Origin: Bacteroidales bacterium | Lineage (GTDB): Bacteria; Bacteroidota; Bacteroidia; Bacteroidales; UBA7960 | Direction of reading: 5' to 3' | Length of the DNA: 28,961 nt | NCBI GenBank assembly: GCA_007132395.1 | Contig: SLOR01000384.1 | Location: 1-28,961 of the forward strand | Shown: one piece after another, positions 11,923 to 23,440 of the stretch | Layout: every line of letters starts with the position of its first letter | How positions within the stretch are numbered: the stretch's first letter is position 1 | Notes under the pieces: generated by a model | Database searches by the model: none | The model's input: the letters and a program-made list of their open reading frames with translations, nothing else | Told to the model about the DNA's origin: nothing | Program-made: the position numbers and the translations under genes

Positions 11923-12774
11923 ATGAAGCGCGCGCTAAATGAAGAAATAGAGATAGGGATATCAGGGATAAGGAAACTTACCGAAACATTAAAAAATCAT
12001 TACGGATTTGATATCGGGGTTTACTCCAGCACATCACTGAAGCGTAGAGTGGTAAAGGTTATGGATTTAAACAACCTCAAAAACCTGGATGCGCTGATAC
12101 AGTTACTGGAAACCAGTGAGTCATTTTTTCCATTATTCCAGAAGCAACTTACTGTTGAAGGCACCGAATTTTTTCGCGACCCGGCCCTATGGCGCTACCT
12201 GCGCGATGAAATAGCGCCGGTGCTCGACCGCAATCACATGAAGATTAAAATATGGATTCCCGGATGCTCAACCGGGGAGGAAGTGGTAAGCACCGCCATT
12301 ACACTTAAAAATGCTGGTATTTACGATAAGTCTGTCATCCTGGCAACCGACCTTAACAAGGAAATCATTAAACAATCCAGGGAAGTAATTTATTCCAATA
12401 ATAAACTGGAAATATCAGAAAACAACTATAAAAGGTTTCTTGAGGATGAGTCGGCAGATCTTTCTGGTTATCTGATAAAAAAGGATAAAGGATTCCAGTT
12501 TAAAGATGATTTATACAGCAATATCATTTATGATGTATTCACCGGGACAGAAAATTTAAAAATTAAGGGAATAAACGTGGTTTTATGCAGAAATTATTTT
12601 ATATATTTCACCACGCAATATCAAGAGAAGCTCTTTGGCATTTTTACAGCCAATCTCTCCACCAATGGCTATTTTGCCATTGGCAACAAAGAGAATATTA
12701 CCTTCTGTAAAGATGCGGATAAATATGCCCTTGTGAATGACAATGAAAAGGTTTACAAAAAAATATCTGCCTGA
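11923..12774 (+). CDS. cheR: CheR-family protein-glutamate O-methyltransferase
   Basis: YGFDIGVYSSTSLKRR (N-terminal domain), TEFFRDP, KIWIPGCSTGEE, ATDLN, LCRNYFIYF. Confidence 0.9.
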   Translation: MKRALNEEIEIGISGIRKLTETLKNHYGFDIGVYSSTSLKRRVVKVMDLNNLKNLDALIQLLETSESFFPLFQKQLTVEGTEFFRDPALWRYLRDEIAPVLDRNHMKIKIWIPGCSTGEEVVSTAITLKNAGIYDKSVILATDLNKEIIKQSREVIYSNNKLEISENNYKRFLEDESADLSGYLIKKDKGFQFKDDLYSNIIYDVFTGTENLKIKGINVVLCRNYFIYFTTQYQEKLFGIFTANLSTNGYFAIGNKENITFCKDADKYALVNDNEKVYKKISA

Positions 12775-12957
12775 TTTTTTTTATTGCAGCGATAATTTTT
12801 AATCATCCACCAAACTTGACAGGTGTATATTGTTTATAGCGTTGTTATATTGCCGGCCCGTGTAATAGCATTACTGAGTTACCAGCCGGCTTTTTATCTT
12901 AATAAAACACATTGAAACTGATAAAAAATTGTTTTACAATTGGTTAAAGCGGGAAGA

Positions 12958-13527
12958 ATGAGGTATAAGTTAATAATTATAGGCGGCTCGGCAGGTAGTT
13001 TTCAGGTTGTAACAAAAATTTTATCTAAACTTCCGGCTAACTTTAACATTCCCATTGTACTGGCATTGCACCGCCTTAAGCATGTAAGGCACGGTTTCGT
13101 TGAGGCGCTTTCCATAAAATCGGTCTTACCCGTGGTGGAACCCCTCGACAAGGAAGGACTGAAGCCCGGCAAAGTCTACCTGGCACCTGCCAACTATCAC
13201 CTCTATGTGGAGCTTGCAGGCAAATTTGCCTTGTCTACAGAAGAGCCGGTAAACCACTCCAGGCCCGCAATTGATTTGAGTTTTATGACCGGAGCCTACA
13301 GTTATAAGGAAAAAACAATTGGTATTATCTTATCAGGTGCAAATAAAGATGGTGCCATGGGACTTAAAAAAGTTAAAGACTGGGGCGGCCTTACTATTGT
13401 TCAGGACCCTGCTGAGGCCCAAATGCCAACTATGCCCAAAGCTGCGCTTGATATGGCCGGGCAGGTGGACCATATATTGAAGGTAGACGAGATAATTAAA
13501 TTTTTGAATTCATTAACAAAATCTTAG
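12958..13527 (+). CDS. cheB: CheB-type methylesterase, catalytic domain only (no receiver domain)
   Basis: Ser-His-Asp triad motifs IGGSAG, LALHR and GANKDGA, plus LAPANYHL and SRPAID. ATG at 12958; alternative TTG at 12940. Confidence 0.9.
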   Translation: MRYKLIIIGGSAGSFQVVTKILSKLPANFNIPIVLALHRLKHVRHGFVEALSIKSVLPVVEPLDKEGLKPGKVYLAPANYHLYVELAGKFALSTEEPVNHSRPAIDLSFMTGAYSYKEKTIGIILSGANKDGAMGLKKVKDWGGLTIVQDPAEAQMPTMPKAALDMAGQVDHILKVDEIIKFLNSLTKS

Positions 13528-13605
13528 TTTTGTCTGATTTATTAATATCGGGCCTTTACAGGCTGCATTAAGGAAACAAATCGTGTAACCCAAAAAATAC
13601 AAATA

Positions 13606-14439
13606 GTGAAGCAAAAAAAACTACTCCTATTCATTGGTATTAAAGTGTTTCTGTTGCTTATGGCCTGGGCCACCTTTACCGGTACAGGAAATATTGTAAG
13701 CATAGCCGAAAACACCTCTGTTTTCGACCAGATTGCCAAGGCAGCCGGAAACCTTAATATATACCTGACAATTTTAATTTTTGCCCCTTTCCTGCTGGTG
13801 ATCGGACTTACCATACAGGAAATCATTGCCATTAAAAACAGGAAAATTCAGGAATCACTCAAGGCGAAACAGGAAACTGCTTCCGGGCAAACTGAAGTTC
13901 AGGAAGATCCAGAAGAGGCCAATAGGGAAAAAGAGCGCATTGCTGAAGAGGAAGCCCGCAAAAGACAAGAGGCACTGCAAAGCTGCATAGATAAGGAGTT
14001 AACCAAAAATATGCCTGACAATAAAAAGCAGTTATCAGAAAAAATACTCAGCTGCATCGCCAGGATCTACGAAATAACCCAGGCCGAAATATTTATACGG
14101 GAAAAAACCGAAGACAACGACAAGCTTGTTTTATCAGCCACTTACGCTTACTATATTCCTGAAGAAAAGATATTTGAGTTTCAGATAGGAGAAGGACTTA
14201 TTGGTCAGGTGGCCAAAGCAGGCGATCACTTGTATCTTGATGAATTGCCTGAAGGATATATCACAGTAAAATCAGGGCTGGGCTCGGCTACCCCCAATCA
14301 TTTGCTCATTCTGCCCTGGAAAAACGCTGAAGGCAATACTTTTGCCATCTTAGAAATGGCATCTTTCAAGCCTTTCCATGCAACCGATATCGGGTTTATT
14401 GAAGGTATGGCCCATAAGGTTGTGCAGCATTATGAATAA
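13606..14439 (+). CDS. Membrane-anchored GAF-domain protein with no output domain
   Basis: GTG start, two hydrophobic segments and a charged coiled coil (EEANREKERIAEEEARKRQE). The C-terminal GAF (ATYAY, IGEGLIGQVA, YITVKSGLG, LLILP, LEMASF) runs to the stop codon. Confidence 0.8.
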   Translation: MKQKKLLLFIGIKVFLLLMAWATFTGTGNIVSIAENTSVFDQIAKAAGNLNIYLTILIFAPFLLVIGLTIQEIIAIKNRKIQESLKAKQETASGQTEVQEDPEEANREKERIAEEEARKRQEALQSCIDKELTKNMPDNKKQLSEKILSCIARIYEITQAEIFIREKTEDNDKLVLSATYAYYIPEEKIFEFQIGEGLIGQVAKAGDHLYLDELPEGYITVKSGLGSATPNHLLILPWKNAEGNTFAILEMASFKPFHATDIGFIEGMAHKVVQHYE

Positions 14440-14501
14440 AAAACAGGAACTAACCTATAATTTTTGCGTAAAACACAGGGGTTTTTAATTCTTTTTAAAC
14501 G

Positions 14502-14509
14502 TATTTTTG
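14502..14509 (+). promoter_or_regulatory. Possible internal '-7' box ahead of the PP2C phosphatase gene
   Basis: TATTTTTG(C) in the 156-nt gap, 86 nt before the ATG at 14596. Confidence 0.45.
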
Positions 14510-22381: not shown

Positions 22382-22476
22382 TTGGTGTCTCACAATGATA
22401 TTATATTACCTTGCTTGAAAGCACCTTTCATTGTATTTTTGACGACACCAATCAATAACACCAAAAAATTGAAAAC

Positions 22477-22917
22477 ATGAAAAAATATTTTATCCTTACA
22501 GGTCTTATTTTCGTAATGCTTTTTGCAAATAAGTCGCAGGCCCAGTGTGGCGATGGTTTGTTTGATATATGTCACTCCAAGCTTGATGATGCACGTTTTT
22601 TGAAGAGCTGGGCCATTCAGCTCGAAAATCAAAGGTCGGGCGAACCCCTTCCACAGGTTAGCTTTAAAATGCCCCTCACCAGTGGAAATACCTACAAAAT
22701 TTTTGCCTGCAATGCAGAGGAGCTCCCCGGAAAAGTTATTATTAGTATTCGCAATCAAAACGACGACCTTGTTGTTACTTCCTATATGGTAGAGCAAAGA
22801 AGGCACATACCGGTAATAATGTTTCCCGTAGGTATGAGTGGTATTTATACCTTTAGCTTTTACTTTGAAGACGGTAAAGAAGGATGCGCAGTGGGCGTAG
22901 TATCGAGTGTAAACTAA
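22477..22917 (+). CDS. Uncharacterised small secreted protein with four Cys
   Basis: Sec signal MKKYFILTGLIFVMLFANKSQA|Q, then a beta-rich mature part with Cys24, Cys32, Cys78 and Cys138. Confidence 0.75.
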   Translation: MKKYFILTGLIFVMLFANKSQAQCGDGLFDICHSKLDDARFLKSWAIQLENQRSGEPLPQVSFKMPLTSGNTYKIFACNAEELPGKVIISIRNQNDDLVVTSYMVEQRRHIPVIMFPVGMSGIYTFSFYFEDGKEGCAVGVVSSVN

Positions 22918-23003
22918 TCACAACCCTTCAAGCCTTATTATTTTTCGCAGCCGGTTTTGGCATATTTTATTCACCCATAAACATTTCCTAATATTTAAGC
23001 TCT

Positions 23004-23393
23004 ATGGAAAGTACAAAGAAGAAAATATTCGTAATAGAGGATAATAAAACCGAGGGAATGTTATTAAAGCTTTGCCTGGGTGCCATAAAAAATGTAAGCA
23101 TCTCTAATTTTACCTACGGCGAAGATCTGCTGAATAACCTGCACGAAGAACCCGAAATTCTAATCGCCGACATGATGCTTCCCGATATATCCGGAGTAGA
23201 ACTTATACAGGCAATCCGGGAAAAAAGCCCCGGCACAGAAATTATTGTTGTATCGGCACAAAAAGACATTGATGTAATCGCAAGGGTACAGGAACTAGGC
23301 ATTTATAATTACCTGGTGAAAAGTGAAACCTGCATGGAAACTTTGCAGAAATCCATTGAAGACCTTACATTTCTTATCGACCATAAACGATAA
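23004..23393 (+). CDS. Single-domain response regulator (REC)
   Basis: VIEDN acidic pocket, ILIADMMLPDISG (phospho-Asp), VVSA, YLVK. Confidence 0.88.
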   Translation: MESTKKKIFVIEDNKTEGMLLKLCLGAIKNVSISNFTYGEDLLNNLHEEPEILIADMMLPDISGVELIQAIREKSPGTEIIVVSAQKDIDVIARVQELGIYNYLVKSETCMETLQKSIEDLTFLIDHKR

Positions 23394-23408
23394 AAGCAAT
23401 TTTACTTC

Positions 23409-23440
23409 AAAAAAGCAGGCCCTGTGCCTGCTTTTTTTTT
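23409..23440 (+). terminator. Rho-independent terminator closing unit 1
   Basis: aaaaaagcaggc-cctgt-gcctgcttttttttt. Confidence 0.88.

What the first reader, a model, noticed from the sequence alone, without database searches (positions are those of the whole stretch)
11923..23440. Candidate undescribed system: CheR/CheB adaptation enzymes, a SiaABC-like partner switch and an ABCG-like envelope module in one operon
Seen: ten co-directional genes (gaps 31-183 nt) run from a '-7' box at 11886 to a strong terminator at 23409-23440. They are cheR, cheB, TM-GAF, TM-HAMP-GAF-PAS2-PP2C, siaB-like, siaC-like, a TerB/FHA-like ABC transporter, a lipoprotein, a secreted 4-Cys protein and a REC. There is no MCP, CheA, CheW or diguanylate cyclase. 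Established: P. aeruginosa SiaA (PP2C) and SiaB (kinase) set the phosphorylation of SiaC, which controls the diguanylate cyclase SiaD; CheR/CheB reversibly methylate Glu in receptor coiled coils. Inference: this is a methylation-adapted Ser/Thr phospho-switch whose input or output is an ABC-lipoprotein-secreted protein envelope apparatus. Similar clusters probably occur in other Bacteroidota; I know of no functional description but cannot search to confirm.
Basis: partly seen in the sequence, partly recalled or inferred. Interest (0 to 1): 0.85.

Follow-up and report, generated by a model that had tools for sequence, protein, structure and literature searches.

The report
Methylation-tuned phospho-switch beside ABC exporter
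A conserved Bacteroidota gene cluster joins chemotaxis-type methylation enzymes and a Pseudomonas-type phosphorylation switch to an uncharacterised membrane exporter, in genomes that cannot make the switch's usual target; the wiring is real and untested, but this scan has already seen it in other genomes.

Summary

Comparison of about 150 related loci splits the cluster into modules:
- **Core, kept across orders of Bacteroidota (gene order varies):** SiaB kinase, SiaC phosphoprotein (Thr68), a TerB-fused ABCG-like transporter, a lipoprotein and a small disulfide-bonded beta-sandwich protein.
- **Input module, Bacteroidales-type lineages only:** CheR, REC-less CheB, TM-GAF and the TM-HAMP-like-GAF-S-helix-PAS-PAS-PP2C phosphatase.

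No GGDEF domain was found in this genome or in 29 of 30 genomes that carry the cluster. A SiaD-type output is therefore excluded, and the exporter is the likely partner of SiaC.

Eight cluster-bearing genomes show neither MCP nor CheW. The likely methyl acceptor is the phosphatase's S-helix, its most conserved segment. Its central Glu-Glu pair is kept in 63 of 64 loci with cheR/cheB and lost in all 3 without them.

All mechanism steps are inference. Precedents exist: MAC2 systems, B. cereus RsbK/RsbM and SiaABCD. I rate it a new variant of known kinds. This scan found the same system before in at least seven other genomes. I found no paper describing it.

The parts
11886..11893 (+). Bacteroidota-type -7 promoter box TATATTTG, 30 nt before cheR
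   Evidence: Read directly. Consensus TAnnTTTG is from my own knowledge. Function not tested.
11923..12774 (+). CheR-type glutamate O-methyltransferase (283 aa)
   Evidence: PF01739 E 1e-30 and PF03705 E 1e-8. One of four CheR genes in the genome. Kept upstream of the phosphatase in 64 related loci.
12940..13527 (+). CheB methylesterase without receiver domain (195 aa)
   Evidence: PF01339 E 1e-48, full length. Ser, His and Asp of the triad align with T. maritima CheB 3sft.
13606..14439 (+). Two-TM GAF protein without output domain (277 aa); paralog of the phosphatase's N-terminal half
   Evidence: GAF_2. TM 6-24 and 52-70. A separate gene at this position in the cheR/cheB-bearing loci.
14596..17187 (+). 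Sensor phosphatase (863 aa): 2 TM, HAMP-like linker, GAF, S-helix, PAS, PAS, SiaA-like PP2C
   Evidence: Pfam. NF038263 SiaA partial match, E 2e-47. Best solved relative is the P. aeruginosa SiaA PP2C domain 6k4e, E 1e-32. TM 9-27 and 50-68.
15562..15615 (+). S-helix core, residues 323-340 (EEELRQNAEEMRLTQEEL): Glu-Glu pairs at 324/325, 331/332 and 338/339, seven residues apart. Candidate methyl-accepting sites.
   Evidence: Most conserved segment of the protein. E331-E332 is kept in 63/64 loci with cheR/cheB and lost in 3/3 without. The same motif occurs in six paralogous sensors of the genome.
17254..17829 (+). SiaB-family protein kinase (191 aa, DUF6272)
   Evidence: NF038262 171.7 bits against a cut-off of 85, and PF19788 E 1.5e-42. 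Aligns with P. aeruginosa SiaB 6kko_A, E 1e-13.
17861..18235 (+). SiaC-family phosphoprotein (124 aa); phospho-acceptor Thr68 at 18062-18064
   Evidence: PF09345 E 3e-42. Thr68 aligns with the NT(S/A)S threonine of P. aeruginosa SiaC 6kko_C. It is Thr in 146 of 147 orthologs.
18271..21426 (+). ABCG-like half-transporter (1051 aa). N-terminal TerB domain (8-143), beta-rich segment (about 185-255), NBD (271-422) and TM1-5 (588-747). Then an insert of about 240 aa predicted periplasmic (748-988), TM6 and a Lys-rich tail.
   Evidence: Pfam and TIGR00955, E 7e-76 over 278-795. Hydropathy. The N-terminus is near-invariant across orders. Walker A, signature and Walker B motifs are read. Nearest solved NBDs are Cdr1/Pdr5, ABCA3 and ABCG2.
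21473..22381 (+). Lipoprotein (302 aa): helical bundles plus a small four-stranded sheet. Bacteroidota-only family with no Pfam model.
   Evidence: Lipobox Cys22 is invariant in 31 orthologs. AF2 pLDDT 82. No significant PDB match. Only uncharacterised, weakly DUF5667-like models in AFDB and Bacteroidota lipoprotein clusters in the Atlas.
22477..22917 (+). Exported 146-aa beta-sandwich protein with two covarying Cys pairs (C24/C137, C32/C78)
   Evidence: Signal peptide read. AF2 pLDDT 89. GOLD / pre-peptidase-C-terminal-like fold: TM by hit 0.74, E 2e-5. Cys covariation.
23004..23393 (+). Single-domain response regulator (129 aa), present only in the closer relatives
   Evidence: PF00072 E 3e-18. 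Found after the small protein in L011-L039 and L042, and absent in the Salinivirgaceae-type loci.
23409..23437 (+). Intrinsic-terminator-like hairpin (12-bp stem, 5 G-C pairs) followed by a T run
   Evidence: Depth in the soda-lake metatranscriptome falls from 9.4 to 0.2 across it.

Best explanation
The cluster is a three-layer signalling-to-envelope system. Steps 1 to 3 rest on homology plus comparative evidence. Steps 4 and 5 rest on gene neighbourhood and topology only.

1. **Sensing.** A membrane-anchored sensor phosphatase (TM-HAMP-like-GAF-S-helix-PAS-PAS-PP2C) reads a cytoplasmic or membrane signal, probably together with the TM-GAF paralog.
2. **Adaptation.** CheR methylates, and the receiver-less CheB demethylates, Glu-Glu pairs on the S-helix between GAF and PAS (E331/E332, E338/E339). 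This resets phosphatase output, as methylation resets chemoreceptors and the B. cereus kinase RsbK.
3. **Switch.** The PP2C domain removes, and SiaB adds, a phosphate on Thr68 of SiaC.
4. **Output.** These genomes have no diguanylate cyclase. Free SiaC instead binds the cytoplasmic N-terminal TerB module of the adjacent ABCG-like half-transporter and gates its ATPase.
5. **Envelope work.** The transporter has a periplasmic insert of about 240 aa between TM5 and TM6. It works with the lipoprotein and the small disulfide-bonded beta-sandwich protein to export or remodel an envelope component, probably a lipid or glycolipid.
For: **Family assignments.**

**One conserved unit.**
- The cheR...small-protein order holds in about 40 species genomes.
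- In an ABC-anchored metagenome sample, SiaB+SiaC lie directly upstream in 57 of 64 loci, the lipoprotein plus small protein lie downstream in 46 of 48, and cheR+cheB lie upstream in at least 28 of 35.
- Across Flavobacteriales-, Cryomorphaceae-, Chitinophaga- and other Bacteroidales-labelled MAGs, only SiaB, SiaC, ABC, lipoprotein and small protein stay together. Strand and order vary and the neighbours are unrelated. That pattern argues for a functional link.

**No SiaD-type output is possible.** There is no GGDEF in the own genome or in 29 of 30 cluster-bearing genomes.

**CheR/CheB do not need chemoreceptors.** Nine of 30 genomes lack MCPsignal. Eight of those also lack CheW, yet have 2-6 CheR hits each.

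**The S-helix is the likely substrate.**
- Residues 323-340 are 84% identical in orthologs that are 50% identical overall; the PP2C domain is 57%.
- E331-E332 is EE in 63 of 64 loci with cheR+cheB and non-EE in 3 of 3 without. Fisher p is 8e-5, not corrected for phylogeny.
- Many orthologs, and six paralogous [dCache]-HAMP-GAF-S-helix-PAS sensors in this genome, read EExxAT there. EExxAT is half of the chemoreceptor methylation consensus as I recall it.
- MAC1-type CheB-CheR fusions in neighbouring genes carry NEEL heptads.

**Precedents.**
- RsbM methylates the S-helix of CHASE3-HAMP-GAF-S-helix kinase RsbK, upstream of a PP2C partner switch (PMC4574943).
- DUF1987 proteins have been proposed to modulate adjacent proteins (PMC8457831).

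**Transporter features.** Topology and the periplasmic insert are. The N-terminal TerB module is the most invariant part of the regulatory region.

**Expression.** Metatranscriptome contigs cover the cluster, bridge gene junctions and stop at the terminator.
Against: - Nothing here is biochemical: no methylation, phosphorylation, binding or transport was measured.
- The three loci that lost cheR/cheB are few and may not be independent.
- There are counter-examples with cheR/cheB or cheB present: L038 (EA and KE) and L162 (KE).
- L043 keeps cheR-cheB directly before siaB with no sensor phosphatase in the cluster. The methyl acceptor could therefore lie elsewhere.
- The own genome does encode one MCP and CheA/CheW.
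- S-helices are often conserved for structural reasons.
- The SiaC-TerB contact is pure inference; I could not run a complex prediction.
- SiaB/SiaC pairs also sit beside other proteins: a class III cyclase in L062, and histidine kinases in L050 and on contig C364. Adjacency therefore shows a partner but not the direction of signalling.
- The MAG genomes are incomplete, so absences are soft.
Confidence: 0.55

Rival explanations
1. The ABC/lipoprotein/small-protein module is the sensor, not the output. It reports envelope or substrate-flux state through its TerB module to SiaB/SiaC, as Bce-type transporters report to their kinases. SiaC then acts on an unlinked target.
For: - In Flavobacteriales-type loci no phosphatase is encoded next to the core, so another input is needed.
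- The periplasmic insert and the two exported partners look like a sensing surface.
- SiaB/SiaC pairs sit next to sensor kinases in other loci.
Against: - In the only studied system, SiaC binds and activates the adjacent effector (PMC8457831).
- The Bacteroidales clusters already carry a large dedicated sensor with GAF and PAS domains.
- The Walker and signature motifs are intact, which fits an active pump but does not exclude a flux sensor.
- No alternative conserved output gene is seen.
Confidence: 0.2
2. CheR and CheB serve ordinary chemoreceptors or MAC-type kinases encoded elsewhere. They are only genomic neighbours of the partner switch, and the S-helix is conserved for structural signalling reasons alone.
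For: - The own genome has one MCP, CheA/CheW, three more CheR genes and six S-helix sensor paralogs.
- L043 keeps cheR-cheB without the phosphatase gene beside them.
- L038 and L162 have altered Glu pairs despite cheB.
Against: - The adjacency is kept in 64 loci across deep divergence, down to 50% identity of the phosphatase.
- Eight genomes have no MCP and no CheW.
- The central Glu pair is lost exactly in the three loci that lost the cheR+cheB pair.
Confidence: 0.15
3. SiaC controls a nucleotide cyclase rather than the transporter. The candidate is the REC-class III cyclase encoded 750 nt downstream (24147-25403), or a similar enzyme, giving a cAMP/cGMP analogue of SiaD control.
For: - A REC, a REC-Guanylate_cyc and a hybrid kinase follow the cluster.
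- In L062 a SiaB/SiaC pair directly precedes a Reg_prop/Y_Y_Y class III cyclase.
Against: - The downstream cyclase unit lies behind a strong terminator and a 260-nt gap.
- It is present in only 8 of the related loci (L023, L025, L027, L030, L031, L035, L038 and L049) and is replaced by a MAC1-type protein in others.
- The transporter is the constant neighbour in nearly every locus.
Confidence: 0.07

Closest known systems
SiaABCD partner-switch system of Pseudomonas aeruginosa (PMC8457831; bioRxiv 10.1101/674879)
   Same: - A membrane sensor with a SiaA-type PP2C domain.
- A SiaB-family kinase.
- A DUF1987 SiaC with the aligned phospho-Thr68.
- The same gene order, phosphatase-kinase-phosphoprotein.
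- The best solved relatives of all three proteins are the Pseudomonas proteins.
   Different: - No SiaD: GGDEF is absent from the window, the genome and 29 of 30 cluster-bearing genomes.
- The next gene is a TerB-fused ABCG-like transporter.
- The sensor has GAF, S-helix and two PAS domains.
- CheR/CheB are attached.
Bacillus cereus RsbK-RsbM-RsbY / RsbV-RsbW sigma-B module (PMC4574943)
   Same: - A CheR-type methyltransferase is encoded beside a sensor with the HAMP-GAF-S-helix architecture.
- The S-helix is the methylated element.
- The pathway runs through a PP2C phosphatase into a phospho-partner switch.
   Different: - RsbK is a hybrid histidine kinase that phosphorylates a separate REC-PP2C. 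Here the PP2C is fused to the sensor.
- A CheB esterase is present here, so methylation is reversible.
- The switch proteins are SiaB/SiaC rather than RsbW/RsbV.
- The output is not a sigma factor.
MAC2 (methyl-accepting coiled-coil) systems of Wuichet and Zhulin 2010, as described in 10.1101/2022.05.07.491037 and PMC6943060
   Same: - Separate CheR and CheB genes are associated with a non-MCP protein that carries a heptad Glu-rich coiled coil.
- They occur in genomes without other chemotaxis systems.
- They are experimentally uncharacterised.
   Different: - MAC proteins are described as combining receptor and kinase functions. This one ends in a PP2C phosphatase and feeds a Ser/Thr partner switch.
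- I could not run the MiST MAC2 profile.
Mycobacterium tuberculosis Rv1747, an FHA-regulated ABC exporter (from my own knowledge, not checked here)
   Same: A half-transporter with NBD before TMD, whose N-terminal regulatory domains link it to Ser/Thr phosphorylation.
   Different: - Rv1747 has two true FHA domains that bind phospho-Thr. Here the N-terminus is a TerB domain plus a segment with only a faint FHA-like signal (E 0.1) that lacks the Arg/Ser/His signature, by eye.
- Regulation would be through a separate phosphoprotein.

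Membership tests
SiaABCD partner-switch system | SiaA-type PP2C phosphatase on a membrane sensor | tested here: met
   SpoIIE E 6e-17. NF038263 matches over the PP2C part, E 2e-47, below the full-length cut-off. 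Best PDB hit is the SiaA PP2C domain 6k4e, E 1e-32.
SiaABCD partner-switch system | SiaB-family kinase | tested here: met
   NF038262 171.7 bits against a cut-off of 85. Aligns with 6kko_A, E 1e-13.
SiaABCD partner-switch system | DUF1987 SiaC with phosphorylatable Thr68 | tested here: met
   PF09345 E 3e-42. Thr68 aligns with the threonine of Pseudomonas SiaC. Thr in 146/147 orthologs. Phosphorylation itself not tested.
SiaABCD partner-switch system | SiaD diguanylate cyclase as the target of SiaC | tested here: not met
   No GGDEF in the window, none in the own genome, which is 82% complete, and none in 29 of 30 cluster-bearing genomes.
MAC2 methyl-accepting coiled-coil system | Separate CheR and CheB genes associated with the acceptor protein | tested here: met
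   cheR and cheB lie two genes upstream of the acceptor, and are kept there in 64 loci.
MAC2 methyl-accepting coiled-coil system | Coiled coil with heptad-spaced Glu/Gln pairs that accept methyl groups | tested here: inconclusive
   Three EE pairs lie seven residues apart, are highly conserved, and correlate with the presence of cheR/cheB. Methylation not measured.
MAC2 methyl-accepting coiled-coil system | Histidine kinase output in the same protein (as described in 10.1101/2022.05.07.491037) | tested here: not met
   The protein ends in a PP2C domain. No HisKA or HATPase_c is found.
MAC2 methyl-accepting coiled-coil system | Match to the MiST MAC2 profile HMM | not testable with these tools
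   The profile is not in Pfam or NCBIfam (PMC6943060 says so).
Canonical chemosensory pathway | MCP signalling domain, CheA and CheW working with CheR/CheB | tested here: not met
   None in the cluster or window. Eight of 30 cluster-bearing genomes show neither MCPsignal nor CheW. The own genome has them on other contigs.
ABCG / type V (ABC-2) exporter | NBD N-terminal to an ABC-2 membrane domain, with intact ATPase motifs | tested here: met
   ABC_tran 271-422 and ABC2_membrane 569-788. TIGR00955 E 7e-76 over 278-795, below its full-length cut-off. Walker A GGSGAGKT, signature SGGQRKR and Walker B LFVDEPT are read.
ABCG / type V (ABC-2) exporter | Six TM helices with an extracytoplasmic loop between TM5 and TM6 | tested here: met
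   Hydropathy gives TM1-5 at 588-747 and TM6 at about 989-1012, with 240 residues between them and a Lys-rich tail. This is a prediction only.
FHA domain | FHA fold with the phospho-Thr-binding Arg, Ser and His | tested here: inconclusive
   No Pfam FHA match even at E 1. A profile of 18 orthologs gives only Mek1 FHA, E 0.1, over residues 185-228. Invariant residues are G210, G224 and D239. No structure model was made.
RsbK/RsbM-type methylated sensor | CheR-like methyltransferase beside a HAMP-GAF-S-helix sensor | tested here: met
   Architecture. HAMP is called by Pfam only in the paralogs. Compared with PMC4574943.
RsbK/RsbM-type methylated sensor | Sensor is a hybrid histidine kinase acting on a REC-PP2C | tested here: not met
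   There is no kinase domain, and the PP2C is fused to the sensor.

The most novel reading that the evidence does not exclude
Reversible glutamate methylation by CheR/CheB adapts a sensor phosphatase rather than a kinase-coupled receptor. The resulting phospho-state of SiaC directly gates an ABC exporter through its TerB module. If so, this is the first partner switch known to control a transporter, and the first experimental handle on what MAC-type methylation does in bacteria that lack chemotaxis.
Probability: 0.35. Interest if true: 0.75.

Novelty: new variant of a known kind. Interest (0 to 1): 0.58.

Why it matters
- **What orphan CheR/CheB pairs do.** CheR/CheB pairs without chemoreceptors (MAC systems) are widespread and have never been characterised. 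This cluster offers a compact case with predicted sites to mutate (E331/E332, E338/E339).
- **How far the SiaC switch reaches.** SiaB/SiaC is known only as a regulator of c-di-GMP synthesis. Here it occurs in lineages that appear to lack c-di-GMP synthesis altogether and is tied to an exporter. That would extend partner switching to direct control of transport.
- **A new envelope module.** The exporter, its lipoprotein and its small secreted partner form a Bacteroidota-wide module of unknown substrate, so a phenotype could reveal a new envelope pathway.

The finding is not new to this scan, and each part has a known family. Its value is as a well-defined experimental target rather than as a new principle.

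Tried and rejected
- **Phylum-wide motif test.** I tried to correlate the S-helix motif with CheR across the phylum. The DNA pattern for EE[LM]RQNxEE[LM] is specific: 7 hits in the own genome and 0 in the reversed control. It occurs in only 3 of 300 sampled phylum genomes, so no correlation could be drawn. I replaced this test with the within-family comparison.
- **FHA assignment for ABC residues 144-255.** Pfam finds nothing even at E 1. The profile against PDB gives only E 0.1. The Atlas feature search returns only TerB or unnamed clusters.
- **Known fold for the lipoprotein.** Foldseek against PDB gives nothing below E 0.3. VIA-align best Z is 10.1 on generic helical bundles, under the tool's own caution level for helical proteins. 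The DUF5667 likeness in AFDB is weak.
- **Riboswitch or other RNA.** No Rfam match in the whole window.
- **L034 as single proof of site loss.** I rejected it as sufficient alone, because L038 and L162 show changes with cheB present.
- **Transcript ends from run X4.** The contigs stop at 11920 and 23391. The organism is a roughly 95% relative, so those ends probably mark where similarity ends, not where the RNA ends.
- **Literature.** Searches for DUF6272, PF09345, 'SiaB family' and CheB-CheR fusions found no paper on this system.

Full report

Yes. The window is contig C188 of a 3.1-Mb, 414-contig, 82%-complete MAG. Its nearest relatives are Bacteroidales-labelled MAGs, many from soda-lake sediments.

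Ten + strand ORFs run from 11923 to 23393.
- CheR.
- A receiver-less CheB whose Ser-His-Asp triad aligns with T. maritima CheB.
- A two-TM GAF protein.
- A two-TM GAF-PAS-PAS-PP2C protein whose PP2C domain is closest to P. aeruginosa SiaA (6k4e, E 1e-32).
- A SiaB-family kinase, above the NCBIfam cut-off.
- SiaC, with Thr68 aligned to the Pseudomonas phospho-site.
- A TerB-NBD-ABC2 protein of 1051 aa.
- Two proteins without any Pfam family.
- A REC.

The lipoprotein starts at ATG 21473 (lipobox ITSC), which removes the apparent overlap with the ABC gene. The gaps are then 31-165 nt. The -7 box TATATTTG (11886-11893) and the 12-bp-stem terminator (23409-23437) are both present.

**2. What is conserved?**

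*Anchored on SiaB.* This gave 70 loci from species-representative genomes. About 40 Bacteroidales- and Salinivirgaceae-type loci keep the order cheR, cheB, TM-GAF, phosphatase, siaB, siaC, ABC, lipoprotein, small protein, down to 53% SiaB identity. The terminal REC is found only in the closer half.

*More distant MAGs.* These are labelled Flavobacteriales, Cryomorphaceae, Chitinophaga and other Bacteroidales.
- Only five genes stay together: siaB, siaC, the ABC gene, the lipoprotein and the small protein.
- Order and strand change. The arrangement is lipoprotein-small protein-ABC convergent with siaBC in L051, L056, L069 and L075; divergent in L080; and siaB-siaC-ABC-small protein-lipoprotein in L064.
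- The neighbours are unrelated housekeeping genes.
- The small proteins of those loci still align with the window's.
- In L072 and L073 a different sensor phosphatase (7TMR-DISM-PP2C) sits beside the core.

*Anchored the other way, on the ABC N-terminus, in metagenome contigs* (best 80 of more than 542 hits, so biased to closer relatives):

| Feature | Loci with it / informative loci |
|---|---|
| SiaB+SiaC directly upstream on the same strand | 57 of 64 (3 more in other arrangements) |
| Lipoprotein plus small protein downstream | 46 of 48 |
| cheR+cheB upstream | at least 28 of 35 |

The unit is therefore a five-gene core plus a lineage-specific input module.

*Other partners of SiaB/SiaC.* Pairs elsewhere sit beside other proteins: a Reg_prop/Y_Y_Y class III cyclase in L062, a histidine kinase in L050, and a Y_Y_Y kinase on contig C364 of this genome. 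This fits the published suggestion that DUF1987 proteins modulate adjacent proteins (PMC8457831).

**3. The output cannot be a diguanylate cyclase.**

No GGDEF domain is found in the window, in the whole own genome, or in 29 of 30 genomes that carry the full cluster. The control genomes gave hits. These are MAGs, so any single absence is soft, but 30 of 31 is hard to ascribe to gaps.

The REC-class III cyclase downstream (24147-25403) is an unlikely target:
- It lies behind the terminator.
- It is conserved in only 8 of the related loci.
- It is replaced in others by a 1240-aa CheB-CheR-PAS protein.

**4. What do CheR and CheB act on?**

It fails to refute. Nine of 30 cluster-bearing genomes have no MCPsignal match. 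Eight of those also have no CheW, yet each has 2-6 CheR hits.

The best candidate substrate is the helix between GAF and PAS1 of the phosphatase, ESQEMTQELKENEEELRQNAEEMRLTQEELEKTN. Three results support it.

- **Conservation.** It is the most conserved part of the protein. In 43 orthologs that are 50% identical overall, residues 323-340 are 84% identical, against 57% for the catalytic domain.
- **Paralogs.** The genome holds six more proteins with the same motif (EEMRAQEEEMRQNMEEL[HN]ATQEE[LM]). All are [dCache]-TM-HAMP-GAF-S-helix-PAS sensors without an output domain. Their sites, and those of many phosphatase orthologs (AEEMRATQ), read EExxAT. As I recall it, that is half of the chemoreceptor methylation consensus.
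- **A natural experiment.** Among 67 loci with enough upstream sequence, E331-E332 is EE in 63 of 64 that have cheR and cheB upstream. It is changed in all three that lack the pair: L034 QM, L150 EQ and L144 VE. Fisher p is 8e-5. That figure ignores phylogeny and rests on at most three events.

Counter-examples exist. L038 has EA and KE with both genes present. L162 has KE with cheB present. L043 keeps cheR-cheB directly before siaB with no phosphatase gene in the cluster, although its genome has 17 SiaA-like PP2C paralogs.

I therefore hold S-helix methylation as likely (about 0.6), not shown.

**5. Literature context.**

- MAC1 and MAC2 (methyl-accepting coiled-coil) proteins are defined as non-MCP proteins that include, or are associated with, CheB and CheR. 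[quoted passage not shown]
- The 1240-aa neighbours with [31 protein letters not shown] after their CheB and CheR domains are of the MAC1 kind.
- In B. cereus, the CheR-like RsbM methylates the S-helix of the CHASE3-HAMP-GAF-S-helix kinase RsbK. RsbK acts through the PP2C RsbY on the RsbV/RsbW partner switch (PMC4574943).

The present cluster is thus a fused and rewired relative of known logic:
- The same HAMP-GAF-S-helix acceptor.
- A PP2C fused to the sensor.
- An added esterase.
- SiaB/SiaC in place of RsbW/RsbV.
- A transporter in place of a sigma factor or a cyclase.

Searches for DUF6272, PF09345, SiaB family and the like found no paper on this wiring.

**6. The envelope module.**

*The ABC protein.*
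- It has intact Walker A, signature and Walker B motifs.
- It matches the ABCG/White subfamily model over NBD and TMD.
- It has a near-invariant N-terminus, MSEEILKALMQLFAIIAKQ, that opens a TerB domain.
- Hydropathy places five TM helices at 588-747 and a sixth at about 989-1012, with a Lys-rich tail. The 240-residue helical stretch between them is therefore predicted to be periplasmic, an expanded version of the ABCG extracellular loop.
- The 'FHA-like' segment remains unproven.

*The lipoprotein.* It models well (pLDDT 82) as helical bundles plus a four-stranded sheet. It has no convincing solved relative, and its family is restricted to Bacteroidota.

*The small protein.* It models (pLDDT 89) as a GOLD / pre-peptidase-C-terminal-like beta sandwich. 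Its four Cys form two perfectly covarying pairs, C24/C137 and C32/C78, as expected for a periplasmic or surface protein.

I infer an exporter or mechanotransducer that works with two extracytoplasmic partners. The substrate is unknown. A lipid or glycolipid is a guess, based on the type V fold.

**7. Expression.**

A soda-lake sediment metatranscriptome from the same study as the best DNA run holds near-identical contigs over cheB, the phosphatase, siaB, the ABC gene, the lipoprotein, the small protein and the REC.
- Contigs bridge the phosphatase/siaB, lipoprotein/small-protein and small-protein/REC junctions.
- Depth falls from 9.4 to 0.2 after the terminator.

A sludge metatranscriptome holds a roughly 95% relative in contigs that bridge all junctions.

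This fits one transcription unit but does not prove it. Contigs are not transcripts, and RNA libraries can hold DNA.

**8. Verdict.**

The finding is real, conserved and coherent. The most likely mechanism is a methylation-adapted sensor phosphatase that sets SiaC phosphorylation, which in turn controls an ABCG-like envelope exporter.

Each layer belongs to a known family and the logic has precedents, so I class it as a new variant of known kinds. The same system was already reported by this scan from at least seven other genomes.

- The genome-wide absence of GGDEF.
- The MCP- and CheW-less carriers.
- The Glu-pair against cheR/cheB contrast.
- The paralogous S-helix sensor family.
- The transporter's periplasmic insert.
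- The folds and disulfide covariation of the two exported proteins.
- Metatranscriptome coverage.

Noticed in passing
G000 contigs C153:4514-6667, C250:174-2699, C268:16390-18771, C348:1307-2590, C373:1364-3763 and C373:3788-5068 (loci L081-L085): Six paralogous sensors have the architecture [dCache]-TM-HAMP-GAF-S-helix-PAS and no output domain. All carry the heptad motif EEMRAQEEEMRQNMEEL[HN]ATQEE[LM]. They may be further methyl acceptors for the genome's four CheR genes. How an output-less sensor signals is unexplained.
   Followed up: partly
L034:16393-20121, L020:16301-20020, L021:7240-10962, L022:16292-19663, L016:17115-20573: In several relatives, the gene after the cluster's REC encodes a protein of about 1240 aa: CheB-CheR-coiled coil-PAS_10-PAS-PAS. 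It has four consecutive NEEL heptads ([31 protein letters not shown]), which makes it MAC1-type. In the window that position is taken by the REC / REC-cyclase / hybrid kinase unit.
   Followed up: partly
window 23701-27887: A separate unit lies downstream: REC, REC-class III nucleotide cyclase, and a PAS hybrid histidine kinase with two receivers. None has a membrane segment by Pfam. It is conserved after the cluster in only some relatives (L023, L025, L027, L030, L031, L035, L049).
   Followed up: partly
G000 contig C165 (L086:6146-10370): A chemotaxis-like cluster without MCP or CheA/CheW: hybrid HisKA-HATPase-REC-Hpt kinase, CheR, a HATPase-only protein and CheD deamidase, all on one strand.
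   Followed up: no
L062:9899-14447; G000 contig C364 (L091:13997-17820); L050:9995-12734: SiaB/SiaC pairs, or SiaC alone, lie next to other partners: a Reg_prop/Y_Y_Y class III cyclase, a Reg_prop/Y_Y_Y histidine kinase, and a plain histidine kinase. This suggests the switch is a portable module in Bacteroidota.
   Followed up: partly
L043:3660-10793 and L043:10798-11658: One marine Bacteroidota MAG has cheR-cheB-siaB-siaC-ABC-lipoprotein-small protein with no TM-GAF or phosphatase gene between them. A second CheR is convergent at the end of the cluster. Its genome has 17 SiaA-like PP2C paralogs.
   Followed up: partly
L150:1-5256: In a locus that lacks cheR/cheB, the gene before the phosphatase is an open-ended ORF of 1751 aa or more, made almost entirely of PAS domains (at least 9-11 copies).
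   Followed up: no
window 22477-22917 (alignment A2): The small exported protein's Cys residues covary as two pairs. C24 and C137 are both present in 17 sequences and both absent in 10. C32 and C78 are both present in 26 and both absent in 1. This implies two disulfides, one of them dispensable.
   Followed up: yes
window 994-2718: A 574-aa ORF between a TPR protein and gyrB has no Pfam family at E 0.001.
   Followed up: no
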